Notes under the pieces: model-generated
The model's database searches: none
What the model was told of the DNA's origin: nothing
Seen by the model: only the letters and a program-made list of their open reading frames with translations
Part shown: positions 28,586 to 38,770 of the stretch, piece by piece
How the letters are laid out: the number at the start of each line of letters is the position of its first letter
Numbering within the stretch: the stretch's first letter is position 1
Made by a program: the position numbers and the translations under genes
Assembly (NCBI GenBank): GCA_037143235.1
Contig: JBAWZC010000006.1
Coordinates: 1 to 48,328, forward strand
DNA from: Candidatus Berkelbacteria bacterium
GTDB lineage: Bacteria > Patescibacteriota > UBA1384 > XYA2-FULL-43-10 > 1-14-0-10-43-13
DNA: 48,328 nt
Reading direction: 5' to 3'

Positions 28586-28891
28586 TTACTCCTCCTTTTC
28601 GGCATCACACACATGCTCAGGGCAAAGCATGTCGGTGATGCAACCGTCGTCCACCAGCACGGCATGCGGGTCTTGTTTGACCCAGCCGGCTGGTATATGC
28701 CAGTCGCGAACAATGCCCCTCACTGGGCAACATGAGTAGCAACACTCGATCACGAATGTGCCACTGACAGTCTGTCTAGAGATCTTCTCTTCTAGACGTC
28801 TGACCTCTCGCCTTGCGGCATAGAGATCTTGGTGGTCTTGATCCCATTTTTCCAAAATAGAATCTTCCACCTGTTCCACCTGCTTCCCCAT
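28586..28891 (-). CDS. Hypothetical protein, coiled coil plus Cys/His-rich C-terminus
   Basis: Strong SD (AAGGAG...GAAGGAA); CCYSCC, H, C and CPEHVC residues; TAA stop followed by a hairpin. Confidence 0.7.
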   Translation of the reverse strand: MGKQVEQVEDSILEKWDQDHQDLYAARREVRRLEEKISRQTVSGTFVIECCYSCCPVRGIVRDWHIPAGWVKQDPHAVLVDDGCITDMLCPEHVCDAEKEE

Positions 28892-29009: not shown

Positions 29010-29068
29010 CCTTTTCGTCTTAATTTTCAAAGACTCATCAGCCCACCTTCGAACACTGGTGGGAAAGG
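29010..29068 (-). ncRNA. Hammerhead ribozyme, type III (copy A)
   Basis: Minus strand: CCUU-U^-CCCACC-AGUGUUCGAA-GGUGGG-CUGAUGA-GUCUU-UGAAAAUU-AAGAC-GAAA-AGG. Full catalytic core; stems I (6 bp), II (5 bp), III (4 bp); predicted cut at 29064/29063 after UUU. Confidence 0.85.
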
Positions 29069-29253
29069 TCCTCTCACCCTTCCGAAGAAGGGTGAGAGAC
29101 GGATATTTTGTATTCATCTCAAATACTTAAGGCTCTGCCGCCTTGCCTCACAACTACACTCCTCAATTTAATGACGAGCGGATGCCTTTTGGACATTACG
29201 CATGTGACTCGGATAGTTTTCTCGGATATCAGCCGTTTATTACCCAGCCGATT

Positions 29254-29568
29254 TTACTCGGCTGGGAATTCGATGTCTGCCTCGGAGAAACGCTGGACAT
29301 CTCCTCGGCGAATAGCCGTGATCTGGTAAGGGCCGACCCCTACCAGAATAAAGCCCGTCTGGGCATTGTCGCGCCACCACGGGACTCGCGCGATCAGTGC
29401 GTCGGCTTCCGTGCCGATCATTTTGAAATTTGACGGCACTGTTGCCGTCGTGAGCTGGTTAATCCAGCTCTCATGTTCCGGGCACCCGTAGGTGCTTTCT
29501 CCAACCCCCGTTAAGGAATCGGCTGGAACCGTATATAAACGGTTCCGGAACTTAATATTTCGGGTCAT
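29254..29568 (-). CDS. Hypothetical protein (104 aa)
   Basis: SD AAGGAGGG-TCATC-ATG; stop codon lies in a hairpin loop; no family recognised. Confidence 0.75.
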   Translation of the reverse strand: MTRNIKFRNRLYTVPADSLTGVGESTYGCPEHESWINQLTTATVPSNFKMIGTEADALIARVPWWRDNAQTGFILVGVGPYQITAIRRGDVQRFSEADIEFPAE

Positions 29569-29756
29569 GATGACCCTCCTTCTGTTCCATTCTTTTTTCT
29601 CTGGAACGATTTTTCGCCGTTTGGTCCGGCGTGGATAAGTTAAAATTTAACTCAACACATGCCAAACTAAAAACAAGTTTGAGACTGTTATGTATGAAAC
29701 AGAACAGTAGTAATAATTTTTGTCTTTGTTCGAATATTAAGTAAATATCGACTCTA

Positions 29757-29881
29757 AATCTGTCGGCAAGGGCGCAGGAGTGTTTTGTATAGTTTAGACA
29801 TGATACAAAACCGTCCTTGCTGACAGATTGAAGTGTCCATCACCACTCTCAAAAGAATGATGATGGACGGTAATTTGGCGT
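29757..29881 (-). other. Double long-hairpin structured RNA downstream of the 448-aa gene
   Basis: GTCCATCATCATTC/GAGTGGTGATGGAC hairpin, ACTTC linker, then AATCTGTCAGCAAGGACG/CGCCCTTGCCGACAGATT hairpin. Confidence 0.6.
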
Positions 29882-31228
29882 TTAGCTCAATCCTTTGAAC
29901 TTCGCCTGAAGCTGCCGCATAGCAGCCTCCAGATCTTCTATTGGCTTCGGATCTTCCAGGTCCTCTGCTTCTGCCACCATTTCTTCGATGACAGATTCAC
30001 GCCAGCGGAGATTCATGTTTTGGTATCCGAACTTTGGGTATACCAAGAACTCCAAAACCCCACCGGCGCATATAACAGTTCGCACCACTACAGCCTCTCG
30101 GTTCTCGCAGTGGGCTGTGGGGTCGCCGTAGCAGTTGACATCTGCCAGACGGCCCCAGTCTTGTATTTGAGTTCCATCTTTGTTCGCTACGCTCAAGTAG
30201 CTGAAAGACGGAACATAGCCTAACTCCATGCCAGCAACTGTCTGAATCTCGTCAAGACGTCTGGAGTAGAGCAGGTTTAAATTTTCGTCGAGGCCCATCG
30301 CGCCATTTAGCGCTCCGAGCTCTCTTTCTATCTCCCGAACAGTCTCCAACTGCTGGGCCGTCACACCATTAACCGGCAAGTGCATCACGCGCAGCCAGTC
30401 AATGGCGAGCTCGTCAGGTTGAACGAGGCACCAACCGATCATCCCGTCACTCTTGTAGAGAGGGATTGTGCTGAAGTCTCTCTTGCGGCGGGTACCGTCG
30501 GGTTGAACAACCCAGGCGTCGCCGTGATTTGACGCCCCTCCACGACGGTGCCACGCCGTGAAGTTGAAGAGGCCACCTTTTTCTTCGGCTTCCCGCCAAA
30601 GAGCAGTCGCTTTTTCCCAGGCGTCTCTCACCGATGAACAGATGTGTCCGTACTTGAGCAAATCATCCGTTCCGTCCTCGATTTTGGATATATCTTCGTT
30701 ATCGACGTAGCCAAAATAGTTCCCAGCTTCCGCAAAAATGGCTACCGCTGGGTGTTCCAACACGGCGTTCGCCCACTTGCCTGCCTCGTCAACCCATGCT
30801 TGACGGTTTTTCTCAATTAGTCCGTCAAAGTGAGCTTTGACCTCAGCAAATTTCTCCGCCGAATCAAGCATCACTTTTAGGGCCGGAACAGTGTACGTTC
30901 CATGCATAGCTCCGCCATCAACACGGACAAGCTCGGTGTGAAAAAGCCACATCCCGCCCTCATAGCTACGGTTGCTCGGGTAAGCAATCTGCCACACGCC
31001 TTTACTGCCCATTTTGGCATGAGCGGCATAGTCCGAATCCGGTTCCTTGCAGGTCCGGAATCCGTCGTCACTTTCCCACGAAGCCCCGACGGTGTGCCCA
31101 CCGAAGAACCATACATCCTCGCGAATGTTGTAGGTGCCTGGTTGAAATCCGGCAATCGCCAGAACTTCTTCGAGGCTAAATATTGGCGCTTGCCAATCGG
31201 CTGGTACTGGCAAAATTTTTTCTTCCAT
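29882..31228 (-). CDS. Hypothetical protein (448 aa)
   Basis: Long ORF with SD GGAGGTG; no family recognised. Confidence 0.8.
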   Translation of the reverse strand: MEEKILPVPADWQAPIFSLEEVLAIAGFQPGTYNIREDVWFFGGHTVGASWESDDGFRTCKEPDSDYAAHAKMGSKGVWQIAYPSNRSYEGGMWLFHTELVRVDGGAMHGTYTVPALKVMLDSAEKFAEVKAHFDGLIEKNRQAWVDEAGKWANAVLEHPAVAIFAEAGNYFGYVDNEDISKIEDGTDDLLKYGHICSSVRDAWEKATALWREAEEKGGLFNFTAWHRRGGASNHGDAWVVQPDGTRRKRDFSTIPLYKSDGMIGWCLVQPDELAIDWLRVMHLPVNGVTAQQLETVREIERELGALNGAMGLDENLNLLYSRRLDEIQTVAGMELGYVPSFSYLSVANKDGTQIQDWGRLADVNCYGDPTAHCENREAVVVRTVICAGGVLEFLVYPKFGYQNMNLRWRESVIEEMVAEAEDLEDPKPIEDLEAAMRQLQAKFKGLS

Positions 31229-31360
31229 ACTTCACCTCCATACGCTCCGTCTCATGGACATAATGCGTTTAGTGAAGATTGGAATTTTAAAAATAAAACT
31301 CTAAATCTTAACTAAAAAGATTGAGAGGCACGACCGTCATGGTGGTGCCTCCTGGGATGA

Positions 31361-31936
31361 TTATTCGCTTGCCATCCTGACAAGCAACTCGGCTAACGCC
31401 CTCACTGTGGGGCGTTCAGAGACTGGCTCACCTCTTTCAAGGTGATGCACTGATCCCCGATAAACACCGTCCGAGCCGAGAATCGGAACGGTGTCTTGGG
31501 TGCCAGCATAGTCGGACCATACCTCGGCAATCACCGAGAGTCCGACTTTCTGGCAAAAATCATGCCATTCTGGCAAACGATCAAGATCGCCGGCCAGAAT
31601 GATAACATGGGTAGCTGAGGCACAAATTGCCTCATTTTCAACGCTCGGGATGCCACCAATATCCACGAGCGTCAGCGAAAGTGTACAATTTCGTACAGAG
31701 TCAGCTATTCTCTGCACAAATTCGGGAGTGAACTTGGCCTTGTAGGCCGCTTTGCAAGCGGCAGCCAAGCTTGGGTCCTAATTCACTGTTTCCTGGAACC
31801 AGGACCCTTCACCGTCGGGGCACGCCGTAATTACATACGGGTACGGCGCCCCCGGAATCATTTTGATTGCTTGCTTTAATCCTTCACGCAAGCAACTTTT
31901 TCCGGACCTTGGTGGTCCGGCAAGAATTACTTTCAT
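31361..31936 (-). pseudogene. Csx3-associated P-loop NTPase interrupted by an in-frame TAG at codon 53 (31780-31778)
   Basis: From ATG 31936: MKVILAGPPRSGKS (Walker A)...ACPDGEGSWFQETVN*DPSLAAACK...LVDIGG (Walker B-like); SD AAAGGGGG; frame continuous with the 135-aa ORF. Confidence 0.8.
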
Positions 31937-32029
31937 AATTCCCCCTTTCCGCCATTTGGTCTGGCGTAGTCAGCTCCGTCAATCAATGAAGACCCAGCCA
32001 ACTATGCAACACCAAATATCACCATCTTT

Positions 32030-32063
32030 CCCTCTCCTTTCCAAGGAGAGGCTAGGTGAGGTG
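32030..32063. repeat. CCTCTCCTT-N-AAGGAGAGG palindromic repeat (same family as those around the DUF559 gene)
   Basis: CCCTCTCCTTTCCAAGGAGAGGCTAGGTGAGG resembles 38599-38634 and 38682-38715. Confidence 0.7.
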
Positions 32064-32071
32064 AAATTTTC

Positions 32072-32124
32072 CCTTTTCGTCTTAATTTTCAAAGACTCAT
32101 CAGCCCCGATGTATCGGGGGAAGG
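32072..32124 (-). ncRNA. Hammerhead ribozyme, type III (copy B)
   Basis: Minus strand: CCUU-C^-CCCCGA-UACA-UCGGGG-CUGAUGA-GUCUU-UGAAAAUU-AAGAC-GAAA-AGG. 35 nt identical to copy A; stem I differs in sequence but is fully paired; predicted cut at 32120/32119 after UUC. Confidence 0.88.
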
Positions 32125-32305
32125 TTGAAGCGCATCGAGTGAAATAAATCACTCATTGATGCGCTTCCGGATGTTTGGCTATTTTATCGCACAGCCAAGA
32201 GTGTGCGTCAGCAAAAAATTTTAACGAGTCGCTGATGAACTCGGCCTTCTCGGCATGGATGGTTTACTCGGGGACTCCATCGACCCTCAAATTTAACCGC
32301 CGATA

Positions 32306-32647
32306 TTACTCGGCAGCAGCGACATCGGTCGCCAGGATAATCTGTCCGACGGTGAACGCACCGCCGTGGCAGATCGAGACAACATACCCGGCCAGCTTGG
32401 GGTCGAACACCCCAACGGCCGAATACAAATGTCCCACACCATGCGCAATTGCGCAGGCGGCAGGGAGGGAAGCAGGTCCGTTCAGAAGGACTAACTCCCC
32501 GCCCTGGAGGTGGTTTTCTGCCAACGCCTTAACGGCGTCAGCGACGATTGCATCATTTTGCGCCGGCTCGCCAAAGCCGATGCGCAGTAGAGTGGCCGAA
32601 ACGCCGGCGGCGACTGCATTCTCGGCAGTAATTGTGTAAGTGGCCAT
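32306..32647 (-). CDS. csx3: Csx3/Crn3-like cyclic oligoadenylate ring nuclease
   Basis: LVLLNGPASLP...AHGVGHLYSAVGVFDPKL.GYVVSICH matches my recollection of Csx3 (His pair, DP(R/K)L, distal His); perfect SD TAAGGAGGT before ATG 32647. Confidence 0.82.
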   Translation of the reverse strand: MATYTITAENAVAAGVSATLLRIGFGEPAQNDAIVADAVKALAENHLQGGELVLLNGPASLPAACAIAHGVGHLYSAVGVFDPKLAGYVVSICHGGAFTVGQIILATDVAAAE

Positions 32648-32838
32648 GATGACCTCCTTACCAGTCACTCACTTATTGTATCGAGTGACTGTTCTGGGTT
32701 GGGTATTTAAGGTATTTACCCCCATTCGGAATAAAAGGACTATTAGAGAAGGCATTTTACAAAAAGGGTGATTTATACAACATCTTATATTCTCTGAGAG
32801 ACAAAAACTTCATTGAAACAATCGAGAAAAACAAAAAA

Positions 32839-33435
32839 ATGTCATTTAAAGCCAATGATCCTTTTGTAATAAAAGACTACCTGATAGATCAAGCTCAAAA
32901 GTATCGTGATGCCGAAAACATATTTAGCTCTGTTCTACCCTCTCTCTCAAATATGTTTAAGATGACCACCGAAAAGCCAATTGTCAGAGTTCTGGAAGGT
33001 TTTGAAGGTATCAAAGAACTCTACGAAGATACTTTGAGAGAAAAGGCACCTATTGTGGCTTTTCTGGAAGGGGCCGAATCAGACAAGAGAGTGTGGCGCT
33101 GGCTCAGAGATCAGTATGTCGAAAAACGAAAAAAGGCAAATATCTTTGCCCGTGTTATCGTCTCGAAAGAGATCAACGATGGAGATATCAATGAATACAC
33201 AGAAAAAGACAAGTACGAACTTCGGGAAACACGGATTGTGAACAAAAAAATATTCCCAAGCAAGCTTGAGATTCAAATATACGGCAATAAAGTCTCCTTT
33301 GCCAACTACAACCAAAACGACGTCCTAGTCGGCGTAATCATAGATAACATAAACATTGCGGAAAGTATGAGGGGACTATTTGAGTTGGCATGGATAGCCG
33401 CAGGAAAAAATGCGGCAGTCACGCGATGTGTTTGA
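32839..33435 (+). CDS. TrmB-like transcription regulator, apparently 5'-truncated
   Basis: KPxVRVLEGFEGIKELYEDTL...EIQIYGNKVS...IAESMRGLFELAW effector domain. The frame stays open upstream to 32689, encoding HTH remnants (KGDLYNILYSL) without an ATG. Confidence 0.75.
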   Translation: MSFKANDPFVIKDYLIDQAQKYRDAENIFSSVLPSLSNMFKMTTEKPIVRVLEGFEGIKELYEDTLREKAPIVAFLEGAESDKRVWRWLRDQYVEKRKKANIFARVIVSKEINDGDINEYTEKDKYELRETRIVNKKIFPSKLEIQIYGNKVSFANYNQNDVLVGVIIDNINIAESMRGLFELAWIAAGKNAAVTRCV

Positions 33436-38598: not shown

Positions 38599-38770
38599 TC
38601 CCTCCTCTTTTCAAGGGGAGACTAGGTGGGGTTTAATTTTAAATTAACTCTACGAGAGTTATATCTGGGGTTTAAGTATTTCTCCCCATTTTCAAGGGGG
38701 AGCTAGAGGGGGTTTAATGCCCTAGAATTTTGACAGGGTTTAACCCTCCTGTTTTGAGAGAAGGGGGTTT
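38599..38770. repeat. Three palindromic CCC...TTTTCAAGGGG...GGGGTTT repeats upstream of the DUF559 gene
   Basis: Units at 38599-38634, 38682-38715 and a degenerate one at 38743-38770. Confidence 0.8.

What the first reader, a model, noticed from the sequence alone, without database searches (positions are those of the whole stretch)
29010..32660. Candidate new system: unrelated small ORFs in matching cassette frames ending in a ribozyme
Seen: csx3 (113 aa) and the unrelated 104-aa gene share five features. (i) The start context AAGGAGG(G)TCATCATG. (ii) The end GCCGAGTAA, with the stop codon in the loop of a GCCGA/TCGGC hairpin (32297-32316; 29243-29266). (iii) The motif CCGAGWAAACYATCC, 13/15 identical (32257-32271; 29211-29225). 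(iv) A CGAG...CTCG stem. (v) AAA-N-ATCCG plus a long hairpin, and then the hammerhead about 250 nt after the stop. Inference: interchangeable [SD-ORF-structured RNA-hammerhead] cassettes, swapped by recombination between conserved frames or via RNA intermediates. I know no described system with this layout.
Basis: partly seen in the sequence, partly recalled or inferred. Interest (0 to 1): 0.85.

Follow-up and report, generated by a model that had tools for sequence, protein, structure and literature searches.

The report
Hammerhead ribozyme modules behind two genes
Two unrelated small genes in an acquired gene island of a tiny-genome bacterium are each followed by a self-cleaving hammerhead ribozyme held by a neighbouring hairpin, a known kind of layout that most likely cuts the messenger RNA into separate pieces.

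Summary
Both hammerheads are real type III ribozymes. The core is canonical, and stems I and III covary across 16 relatives. Predicted cleavage falls after window 32120 and 29064, which is 186 and 190 nt after the stop codons.

Of the five "frame" features, three exceed chance:
- the start context;
- the stop codon inside an 8-9 bp hairpin with the shared end GCCGAGTAA;
- the ribozyme itself.

The CCGAG…ATCC motif, the CGAG/CTCG stem and AAA-N-ATCCG do not exceed chance.

The long hairpin before the ribozyme is not a cassette mark. It abuts stem III in 22 of 24 type III hammerheads of this bacterial class.

Such hammerheads occur in 25 of 151 class genomes. Some form arrays in which a constant ribozyme-terminator module flanks unrelated ORFs.

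No recombinase or reverse transcriptase is linked, and no RtcB was found in the genome.

Hammerheads flanking genes of variable identity were described in 2011 (PMC3088659). Best reading: mRNA-processing modules in a mosaic island. Verdict: a new variant of a known kind. Cassette swapping remains possible but is unshown.

The parts
32645..32657 (-). Start context of csx3: GGAGGTCATCATG.
   Evidence: one of only two matches to GGAGG(N)TCATCATG in the genome. The csx3 orthologues in G294 and G454 carry CATCATG and AATCATG.
32306..32647 (-). csx3, 113 aa.
   Evidence: Pfam PF09620 at 26.6 bits against a cut-off of 21. PADLOC Csx3 at 5e-14. 59% and 51% identical to the G454 and G294 orthologues.
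32296..32317 (-). Hairpin with the csx3 stop codon (TAA) in its loop; 8-bp stem.
32127..32167 (-). Long hairpin that ends 2 nt before the 5' strand of stem III.
   Evidence: -25.4 kcal/mol, 0.3rd percentile of local 45-nt windows.
32072..32124 (-). Type III hammerhead 1. Predicted cleavage after C at 32120 (CCUUC|).
   Evidence: (RF00008, 31.1 bits, E 8e-4).
32031..32067 (-). Copy of a 37-nt genome-wide repeat with a hairpin. It is not part of the cassette frame.
   Evidence: (depth 63.7 against about 13-20 in most other bins).
31361..31936 (-). P-loop partner of csx3 (the AAA half of Csx3-AAA), with an in-frame TAG at 31778-31780.
   Evidence: PADLOC PDLC01045, 7e-60, profile positions 108-285 of 286. 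The G454 orthologue (79% identity) has Gln at that codon.
31225..31317 (-). Conserved leader or promoter module in front of the 448-aa gene.
   Evidence: 95% identical to G007 and 81% and 73% to two G010 sites, each time before a different ORF. A promoter-like hexamer pair lies at 31311-31284.
29882..31228 (-). 448-aa orphan ORF.
   Evidence: No family in Pfam, NCBIfam, PADLOC or PHROGs. The C-terminal 125 aa are 48% identical to a G010 511-aa ORF.
29566..29579 (-). Start context of the 104-aa gene: GGAGGGTCATCATG.
29254..29568 (-). 104-aa gene of unknown function.
   Evidence: homologues P0006 and P0007, 34% and 33% identity.
29243..29266 (-). Hairpin with the stop codon (TAA) of the 104-aa gene in its loop; 9-bp stem.
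29105..29220 (-). Structured middle module of the trailer.
   Evidence: 87% identical to G007 (L014 6959-7075), where it follows an unrelated ORF. All 31 predicted pairs are kept. Five pairs changed and none broke; one change is compensatory.
29070..29099 (-). Long hairpin that ends 1 nt before the 5' strand of stem III.
   Evidence: -22.5 kcal/mol, 2.3rd percentile.
29010..29068 (-). Type III hammerhead 2. Predicted cleavage after U at 29064 (CCUUU|).
   Evidence: (17.5 bits, E 5.8).
28586..28891 (-). 101-aa Cys-rich orphan ORF downstream of hammerhead 2.
   Evidence: No family found.

Best explanation
The two elements are copies of a 3'-UTR RNA-processing module: a stable hairpin directly followed by a type III hammerhead ribozyme. 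They lie inside a higher-GC, mosaic, probably horizontally acquired island of a 0.84-Mb genome.

Inferred mechanism:
1. The island is transcribed on the minus strand, probably as csx3 - ribozyme - P-loop gene, and as 448 aa - 104 aa - ribozyme - 101 aa.
2. Each ribozyme cuts itself off the upstream RNA, after 32120 and after 29064.
3. The upstream mRNA then ends in a hairpin plus a 2',3'-cyclic phosphate. The downstream mRNA begins with a 5'-OH and the folded ribozyme.
4. As a result, neighbouring genes get separate RNA fates. That includes csx3 and its partner, which are one fused protein in the PADLOC Csx3-AAA model.

The hairpin that abuts the short (4-bp) stem III is part of the module. 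It either stabilises the ribozyme by stacking or protects the new 3' end.

The shared start context and stop-codon hairpin of the two ORFs are best read as traces of duplication or recombination of expression modules. The island family is built from conserved intergenic modules and variable ORFs.

Shown: the motifs, the ribozyme covariation, the hairpin association, the modular mosaicism. Inferred: cleavage in vivo, the operon structure, the effect on expression, the origin of the frames.
For: - Core and helices. Both copies have the canonical hammerhead core. Stems I and III covary across 16 type III relatives, with H17 = C in 13 and U in 3.
- Spread. RF00008 finds type III hammerheads at E <= 0.01 in 25 of 151 genomes of the class, against 1 of 14 control genomes.
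- Companion hairpin. In 22 of 24 parsed copies, a hairpin of 6 bp or more ends 0-2 nt before stem III. The two exceptions have the longest stems III (10 and 8 bp). The MFE of the preceding 45 nt lies in the lowest 5% of local windows in 12 of 24, and in the lowest 10% in 16 of 24.
- Position. The ribozymes lie downstream of ORFs. A crude rule finds a terminator 36-124 nt further downstream in 9 of 24.
- Insertion into an older gene pair. The csx3 and P-loop orthologues in G454 and G294 are adjacent genes with 160- and about 260-nt spacers and no hammerhead.
- Island composition and modularity. GC is 47-54% in the island against 39-43% in the flanks. The leader and the trailer middle are shared with G007 and G010 next to unrelated ORFs. 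Constant ribozyme-terminator modules flank variable ORFs in G029 and G028.
- Precedent. Clustered hammerheads flanking single genes cleave in vitro, and for one cluster in E. coli. The authors proposed that they cut long transcripts into gene-length mRNAs (PMC3088659, passages read).
Against: - There are no RNA data. No RNA run holds the region, so neither transcription nor cleavage is shown.
- Rfam scores both copies below its gathering threshold.
- Copy 2 has U at position 17, and both copies have only a 4-bp stem III.
- Unlike 9 of the other 22 copies, neither window copy has a terminator behind it. The "remove the terminator" variant therefore does not apply here.
- The 186- and 190-nt UTRs are much longer than the usual 9-115 nt. 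Most of that length is unexplained.
- The stop-codon hairpin is not a general feature of the module. Stems in the other 22 copies are 0-6 bp. Its function is unknown.
- The P-loop gene carries an in-frame TAG, so that operon may be decaying.
Confidence: 0.55

Rival explanations
1. A true exchangeable-cassette system. Conserved flanks act as recombination substrates, so that ORFs are swapped in and out. The flanks would be the start context, the stop hairpin and the hammerhead-containing intergenic module. This resembles the promoter-terminator (PeSL) modules of T4-type phages, but with a ribozyme at the module edge.
For: - The start and stop frames are unique to these two unrelated ORFs in the genome.
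- Three ORFs end in PAE-stop: the 104-aa ORF, the G007 282-aa ORF that precedes the homologous trailer, and a G080 ORF that carries the identical stop hairpin.
- In G029 (3 copies) and G028 (2 copies), conservation starts exactly at the 5' strand of stem III. It then runs through a terminator, while the ORFs and their hairpins differ.
- The same chromosomal locus holds different islands in G000, G007, G010 and G024.
- PeSL-mediated exchange is an established precedent (PMC4122927, abstract read).
Against: - No actual swap was seen between close relatives.
- No linked recombinase was found.
- The two window trailers share no significant similarity between the stop hairpin and the ribozyme.
- The C-terminus of csx3 aligns along its length with its G294 orthologue, so it was not replaced by a foreign module.
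- The start context CATCATG is also present at the G294 csx3.
- Of the 3 extra stop-hairpin matches in the class, one lies in a 23S rRNA gene and one is not at an ORF end.
Confidence: 0.2
2. The shared start context and stop hairpin are coincidence plus convergent selection for good translation signals and a hairpin at the stop. The two hammerhead modules were acquired independently. There is then no common frame at all.
For: - Without the stop hairpin the trailers are no more alike than shuffles.
- Stem I differs between the two ribozymes. The identical stem II is shared with dozens of unrelated bacteria, so identity there reflects constraint and not recent duplication.
- The csx3 start context is inherited from csx3 orthologues.
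Against: Joint rarity argues against it. Both ORFs are among the 8 of 1108 with a stop-in-loop stem of 8 bp or more, and they are the only 2 of 1108 ending in GCCGAGTAA. They are also the only two sites in the genome with the start context. In addition they have near-equal UTR lengths, 186 and 190 nt.
Confidence: 0.15
3. Retrozyme-like RNA. Cleavage at both ribozymes releases a 3,056-nt RNA (32119 to 29064) with a 5'-OH and a cyclic phosphate. This RNA is circularised, or serves as a mobile RNA intermediate.
For: - The two hammerheads are on the same strand and have identical stem III strands (CCUU/AAGG). The 3' end of the released RNA could therefore re-pair with the ribozyme body at its own 5' end.
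- Perreault et al. raised circular or spliced products as a possibility.
Against: - No RtcB was found in the 96%-complete genome.
- Reverse-transcriptase matches occur only on another contig.
- A terminator-like hairpin and a promoter-like module lie inside the segment.
- Perreault et al. report that they could not detect such products.
- There are no RNA data.
Confidence: 0.05
4. The ribozymes are inactive relics carried along in decaying foreign DNA.
For: - An in-frame TAG interrupts the P-loop gene.
- The neighbouring conserved gene is truncated at its 5' end.
- Rfam scores are sub-threshold.
- Copy 2 has U17 and a 4-bp stem III.
Against: Every invariant core position is intact in both copies. 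Stems I differ yet both pair perfectly over 6 bp. The companion hairpins are intact.
Confidence: 0.05

Closest known systems
Clustered hammerhead ribozymes flanking genes in bacterial prophages (Perreault et al. 2011, PMC3088659; passages read)
   Same: Several hammerheads lie on one strand and flank single genes or short gene blocks of non-constant identity. The proposed role is to cut long transcripts into gene-length mRNAs. [quoted passage not shown] Here one ribozyme flanks a Csx3 ring-nuclease homologue.
   Different: - No phage family hit was found for csx3, the P-loop gene, the three orphan island ORFs or ten ORFs of two related arrays.
- The one integrase match in the genome is on another contig.
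- All copies here are type III and have an abutting upstream hairpin.
- The UTRs are long, with a stop-codon hairpin.
- The host is a 0.84-Mb genome.
- Two searches for hammerhead together with Patescibacteria or candidate phyla radiation listed 2 and 3 papers. By their titles and abstract openings, none concerns hammerhead ribozymes in these bacteria.
PeSL promoter-terminator modules of T4-type phages (Comeau et al. 2014, PMC4122927, abstract read; Arbiol et al. 2010, PMC2839356, search listing only)
   Same: Conserved composite intergenic modules bracket unrelated small ORFs in hyperplastic regions. They are thought to serve as points of genetic exchange.
   Different: Here the module begins with a self-cleaving ribozyme. 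Exchange has not been observed. The host is a bacterial chromosome island, not a phage genome.
Integron gene cassettes
   Same: Small ORFs, each followed by a structured element that starts at or near the stop codon.
   Different: No integron integrase is nearby. The hairpin is about 24 nt and does not look like an attC site; I did not test this formally. Some ORFs have their own promoter-like modules.
Retrozymes (Cervera et al. 2016, PMC4918200; search listing and abstract start only)
   Same: Type III hammerheads in direct orientation bound a segment that could be released with ends that can be ligated.
   Different: Retrozymes are non-coding eukaryotic retroelements with long repeats and circular RNAs. 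Here the segment is a 3-kb coding stretch, no RtcB was found and no reverse transcriptase is linked, and no circular RNA is known.

Membership tests
Hammerhead ribozyme, type III (Rfam RF00008) | Conserved core CUGANGA ... GAAA, with A15.1-U16.1 and H17 not G | tested here: met
   Both copies have CUGAUGA, GAAA and the A-U pair. H17 is C in copy 1 and U in copy 2.
Hammerhead ribozyme, type III (Rfam RF00008) | Stems I and II closed by loops and stem III open, supported by covariation | tested here: met
   Stem I is 6 bp in both copies with different sequences. All 16 relatives parse the same way, with covarying stems I and III. 24 copies were parsed in the class.
Hammerhead ribozyme, type III (Rfam RF00008) | Score at or above Rfam's gathering threshold (48.5 bits) | tested here: not met
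   31.1 bits (E 8e-4) and 17.5 bits (E 5.8). In the class search only 1 of 151 genomes had a match over the cut-off.
Hammerhead ribozyme, type III (Rfam RF00008) | Self-cleavage activity | not testable with these tools
   Needs in vitro transcription. No RNA run holds the region.
Csx3 / Crn3 ring nuclease | Match to the family profile above its curated cut-off | tested here: inconclusive
   Pfam PF09620 is above its cut-off, 26.6 against 21 bits. PADLOC Csx3 scores 5e-14. NCBIfam TIGR02579 is below its cut-off, 18.5 against 55.4 bits.
Csx3 / Crn3 ring nuclease | Association with a type III CRISPR-Cas system | not tested
   I made no search for cas10 or CRISPR arrays in the genome.
Csx3-AAA pair | A P-loop partner adjacent to, or fused with, Csx3 | tested here: met
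   PDLC01045 profile positions 9-99 match csx3, and positions 108-285 match the next gene. The adjacent pair is also present in G454 and G294.
Integron cassette array | IntI-type tyrosine recombinase next to the array | tested here: not met
   The single Phage_integrase match in the genome is on contig C3. The window is on C6.
Retrozyme-like circular RNA element | An RNA ligase (RtcB) or reverse transcriptase that could act on the cleaved RNA | tested here: not met
   No RtcB match. RVT_1 matches only on contig C4.
PeSL-like mobile regulatory module | A conserved composite intergenic module flanking unrelated ORFs | tested here: met
   The leader 31225-31317 and the trailer middle 29105-29220 recur next to unrelated ORFs in G007 and G010. 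G029 and G028 have constant hammerhead-terminator modules.
PeSL-like mobile regulatory module | Indels or replacements bounded by the modules between closely related genomes | not tested
   G000 is the only genome of its genus in the set. The DNA contigs of one run showed no alternative order.

The most novel reading that the evidence does not exclude
In this class of very small bacterial genomes, accessory orphan genes are organised as expression cassettes. The constant part of each cassette begins with a hairpin-clamped type III hammerhead and continues, in some arrays, into a terminator and the next promoter. The ribozyme would both make the 3' end of the mRNA and mark the recombination boundary at which ORFs are shuffled. 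That would be a ribozyme-bearing counterpart of the phage PeSL modules, not described in the papers I could search.
Probability: 0.22. Interest if true: 0.7.

Novelty: new variant of a known kind. Interest (0 to 1): 0.48.

Why it matters
Hammerheads between bacterial genes have been known since 2011, but their role is still unsettled.

This case adds three testable points:
1. A short-stem-III type III hammerhead almost always comes with a hairpin stacked against it (22 of 24 copies). This may be a new stabilising element, or a built-in protector of the 3' end.
2. About one in six genomes of one class of very small bacteria carry such modules, behind genes that are mostly orphans in the loci I annotated (25 of 151 genomes).
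3. One copy splits a Csx3 / P-loop pair that is a single fused protein in the PADLOC Csx3-AAA model. This gives a clean system for asking whether ribozyme cleavage sets the ratio of two partner proteins.

If the modules also guide ORF exchange, they would help explain how these reduced genomes renew their accessory genes.

Tried and rejected
- Remote paralogy of csx3 and the 104-aa protein: rejected as far as shallow profiles allow.
- Function of the orphans. Pfam, NCBIfam, PADLOC and PHROGs gave nothing for the 448-, 104- and 101-aa ORFs. The protein atlas gave no usable hit, and its own models are poor (pLDDT 0.38 and 0.33). The word-based homologue search found only the query itself. In the full HMMER search, five of the eight hits are repeat proteins that match by short repeated stretches. 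I discount these five.
- Phage origin of related arrays: 0 of 10 ORFs gave a convincing PHROG hit. Pfam found only flavodoxin, cupin and a dehydrogenase.
- Metagenome scan. I spent the single scan on an exact 32-mer. It returned one unrelated type I hammerhead in a phage-like contig. A looser pattern would have been more useful. The viral scan with the same 32-mer found 0.
- Viral scan with the stop-hairpin 16-mer: 69 matches. By my rough estimate this is about what chance gives in a collection of that size. I did not examine them.
- Genome-collection scan with the stem II pattern: 72 loci, mostly type I hammerheads in gut Firmicutes MAGs. This shows that the identical stem II is a widespread constraint.
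- Expression: no RNA holder listed.
- DNA contigs of run X1, probably the source sample. They break at the two ribozyme repeats. They show one joint, 31457 to 31773, supported by one contig with a 33-nt side. I could not interpret it.
- Antisense coding in the trailer middle module. I rejected this by eye: most differences from G007 would change amino acids. I ran no formal test.
- G080 insert: no similarity to the islands beyond the 16-20-mer.
The supplementary figures S1-S3 of PMC3088659, which show the tested clusters, could not be seen.

Full report
WHAT IS THERE

On the minus strand of 28.5-32.7 kb the order is as follows:
- csx3 (32647-32306);
- a 186-nt trailer and hammerhead 1 (32124-32072);
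- a 37-nt genome-wide repeat (32067-32031);
- a P-loop gene (31936-31361), which matches the second half of the PADLOC "Csx3-AAA" model at 7e-60 and carries an in-frame TAG;
- a hairpin followed by a run of T, and then a conserved leader;
- a 448-aa orphan ORF (31228-29882);
- the 104-aa gene (29568-29254);
- a 190-nt trailer and hammerhead 2 (29068-29010);
- a 101-aa Cys-rich orphan ORF (28891-28586).

The stretch has 47-54% GC, against 39-43% on both sides. The genome is 842,647 bp in 21 contigs and 96% complete.

THE RIBOZYMES ARE REAL

The 29-nt core plus stem II is identical in the two copies, and shuffles of the window give none. Rfam's type III model scores them at 31.1 and 17.5 bits, both under its 48.5-bit threshold.

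A position-by-position parse shows the full hammerhead core in both: a closed stem I of 6 bp with different sequences (CCCCGA/UCGGGG and CCCACC/GGUGGG), a closed stem II, and an open 4-bp stem III (CCUU/AAGG). Fourteen further type III copies from other genomes parse in the same way. Their stems I and III covary freely, and H17 is C in 13 and U in 3 of the 16.

The identical stem II is not a sign of recent duplication. The same stem II occurs in dozens of unrelated, mostly type I, hammerheads of gut Firmicutes MAGs. Predicted cleavage is after 32120 and after 29064.

THE FIVE "FRAME" FEATURES

(i) The start context GGAGG(N)TCATCATG occurs twice in the genome, at these two genes, with 0 control matches. 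However, the csx3 orthologues in G294 and G454 already carry CATCATG and AATCATG.

(ii) The stop hairpin is the strongest feature.
- The exact 16-mer occurs only at these two sites in the genome.
- Among 1108 ORFs of at least 100 aa, only 8 have the stop codon inside the loop of a stem of 8 bp or more. Both ORFs are among them.
- Only these 2 of 1108 end in GCCGAGTAA.
- The stems extend beyond the shared 5 bp with different, still complementary, bases.

(iii)-(v) The remaining similarity does not exceed chance.
- blastn finds only the ribozyme.
- With the first 17 nt removed, the global and local alignment scores are reached by 200 and 348 of 1000 dinucleotide shuffles.
- The CGAG/CTCG stem is not part of the structure conserved with G007.

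The two proteins are unrelated as far as can be seen.

THE LONG HAIRPIN BELONGS TO THE RIBOZYME, NOT TO A CASSETTE FRAME

A search of 151 genomes of the class with RF00008 gave matches in 25, against 1 of 14 control genomes. I parsed 24 copies. In 22 of them a hairpin of 6 bp or more ends 0-2 nt before the 5' strand of stem III. The two exceptions have the longest stems III, 10 and 8 bp.

The folding energy of the preceding 45 nt lies in the lowest 5% of local windows in 12 of 24 copies, and in the lowest 10% in 16 of 24. Stop-to-cleavage distances are mostly 9-115 nt, so the 186 and 190 nt found here are unusually long. G024 gives 196 nt if its SD-preceded 76-aa ORF is the gene, or 132 nt for an overlapping frame. 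A crude rule finds a terminator 36-124 nt after the ribozyme in 9 of 24 copies, but not in the two window copies. Stop hairpins in the other 22 copies are weak, at 0-6 bp.

A MODULAR ISLAND FAMILY

The same chromosomal place, next to two conserved neighbour genes, holds different higher-GC islands in G007, G010 and G024.
- The leader before the 448-aa gene recurs at 95% identity in G007, and at 81% and 73% at two sites in G010. Each time it stands before a different ORF.
- The middle of the 104-aa trailer (29105-29220) recurs at 87% identity in G007, behind an unrelated 282-aa ORF and without a hammerhead. All 31 predicted pairs are kept. Five changed and none broke.
- That G007 ORF also ends in PAE-stop.
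- In the class, the exact stop hairpin occurs three more times, against 0 control matches. One is at the end of a G080 ORF that also ends in PAE-stop. One lies in the 23S rRNA gene of G004. One is not at an ORF end.

In G029 (three copies within 3.3 kb) and G028 (two copies), alignment shows that conservation starts at the 5' strand of stem III. In G029 it runs on through a terminator. The ORFs and their hairpins differ. These arrays show no phage signal.

THE CSX3 PAIR

Orthologues of the P-loop gene in G454 (79% identity) and G294 (69%) lie next to csx3, with 160- and about 260-nt spacers and no hammerhead. The ribozyme module therefore entered an existing gene pair. The TAG codon corresponds to Gln in G454. 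The csx3 C-terminus aligns with that of G294 to its end, so it was not replaced.

WHAT IS ABSENT

- No RtcB match was found in the genome. Reverse-transcriptase matches lie only on contig C4, and one integrase match lies on C3.
- No RNA run holds the region.
- Contigs of one DNA run showed no alternative cassette order.
- The pattern-defined ribozyme occurs in only 2 of 44 genomes of the order.

READING

The best-supported explanation is that these are two copies of a hairpin-plus-type-III-hammerhead module that processes operon transcripts. This follows the proposal of Perreault et al. (2011) for clustered hammerheads flanking genes of variable identity. The shared start and stop frames are most simply read as traces of module duplication or recombination in a mosaic island family.

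No exchange, no enzyme for it and no RNA intermediate is shown. The purposes of the stop-codon hairpin and of the long UTRs remain unexplained.

NOVELTY

The layout itself is known. The new points are:
- the near-constant companion hairpin;
- the frequency of such modules in this class of very small genomes;
- the position of the ribozyme at the edge of constant intergenic modules;
- a copy between csx3 and its partner.

Two literature searches for hammerhead together with Patescibacteria or candidate phyla radiation listed 2 and 3 papers. By their titles and abstract openings, none concerns hammerhead ribozymes in these bacteria. One paper holds both "hammerhead ribozyme" and Csx3; it is a CRISPR review that I did not read.

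Noticed in passing
window 31778-31780 (minus strand): There is an in-frame TAG at codon 53 of the P-loop partner of csx3. The 79%-identical G454 orthologue has Gln there. It could be a nonsense mutation, a sequencing error or read-through.
   Followed up: partly
window 32031-32067 and 38601-38628; many loci in G000, G007, G009, G012, G014, G017, G020, G021: A 37-nt repeat, (T)CACCTCACCTAGCC plus a hairpin CCTCTCC...GGAGAGG, is spread over the genomes of this family. The hairpin arms covary. One copy sits directly behind hammerhead 1. Depth in the DNA run is about 4-5 times that of neighbouring bins.
   Followed up: partly
window 32725-33435 (plus strand): The conserved neighbour gene is 261-272 aa in G007, G010 and G024. 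Here it is only a 198-aa ORF, with a degenerate upstream remnant. Its 5' part seems to have been lost where the island begins.
   Followed up: partly
window 29615-29631 and 31950-31966 (minus strand): The same small hairpin, CGCC(G/A)GACCAAA(C/U)GGCG, lies upstream of the ribosome-binding sites of both the 104-aa gene and the P-loop gene. One base pair differs between them by a compensatory change. G454 has a different hairpin at the same place.
   Followed up: no
L221 (G004:C7:38976-38991), inside a 23S rRNA gene: The 16-mer of the stop hairpin of the 104-aa gene (19 nt if the flanking TGG is counted) is identical to a hairpin in the 23S rRNA of a genome of the same family. This may be chance or mimicry.
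   Followed up: partly
L219 1440-1720 (G080:C3): A roughly 250-nt GC-rich insert lies between two AT-rich host genes. It ends in an ORF with PAE-stop, the identical stop hairpin and a terminator.
   Followed up: partly
L216 4528, 6996, 7792 (G029:C32); L218 (G028:C2); L217 (G073:C2): These are arrays of two or three type III hammerheads on one strand, 0.8-2.5 kb apart, behind ORFs that are orphans except for one cupin-domain protein. In G029 the single-gene units appear to have their own promoter and terminator.
   Followed up: partly
L216 4755-5110 (G029): A 108-aa orphan ORF in the G029 array has the start context GGGAGGTCATCACGTG, and its TGA stop lies in the loop of a UCGGA/UCCGA hairpin. 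This resembles the two window frames. By my rough estimate such a match among the loci I read could be chance (about 0.1).
   Followed up: no
window 31457/31773: One contig of the DNA run joins 31457 to 31773, skipping 315 nt inside the P-loop gene, with four nearby base differences. Only 33 nt support one side of the joint.
   Followed up: no
L116 12000-17250 (G083:C1): A 5-kb island of 55-60% GC, with orphan ORFs all on one strand, ends with a type III hammerhead. It lies in a genome region of about 40-45% GC.
   Followed up: partly
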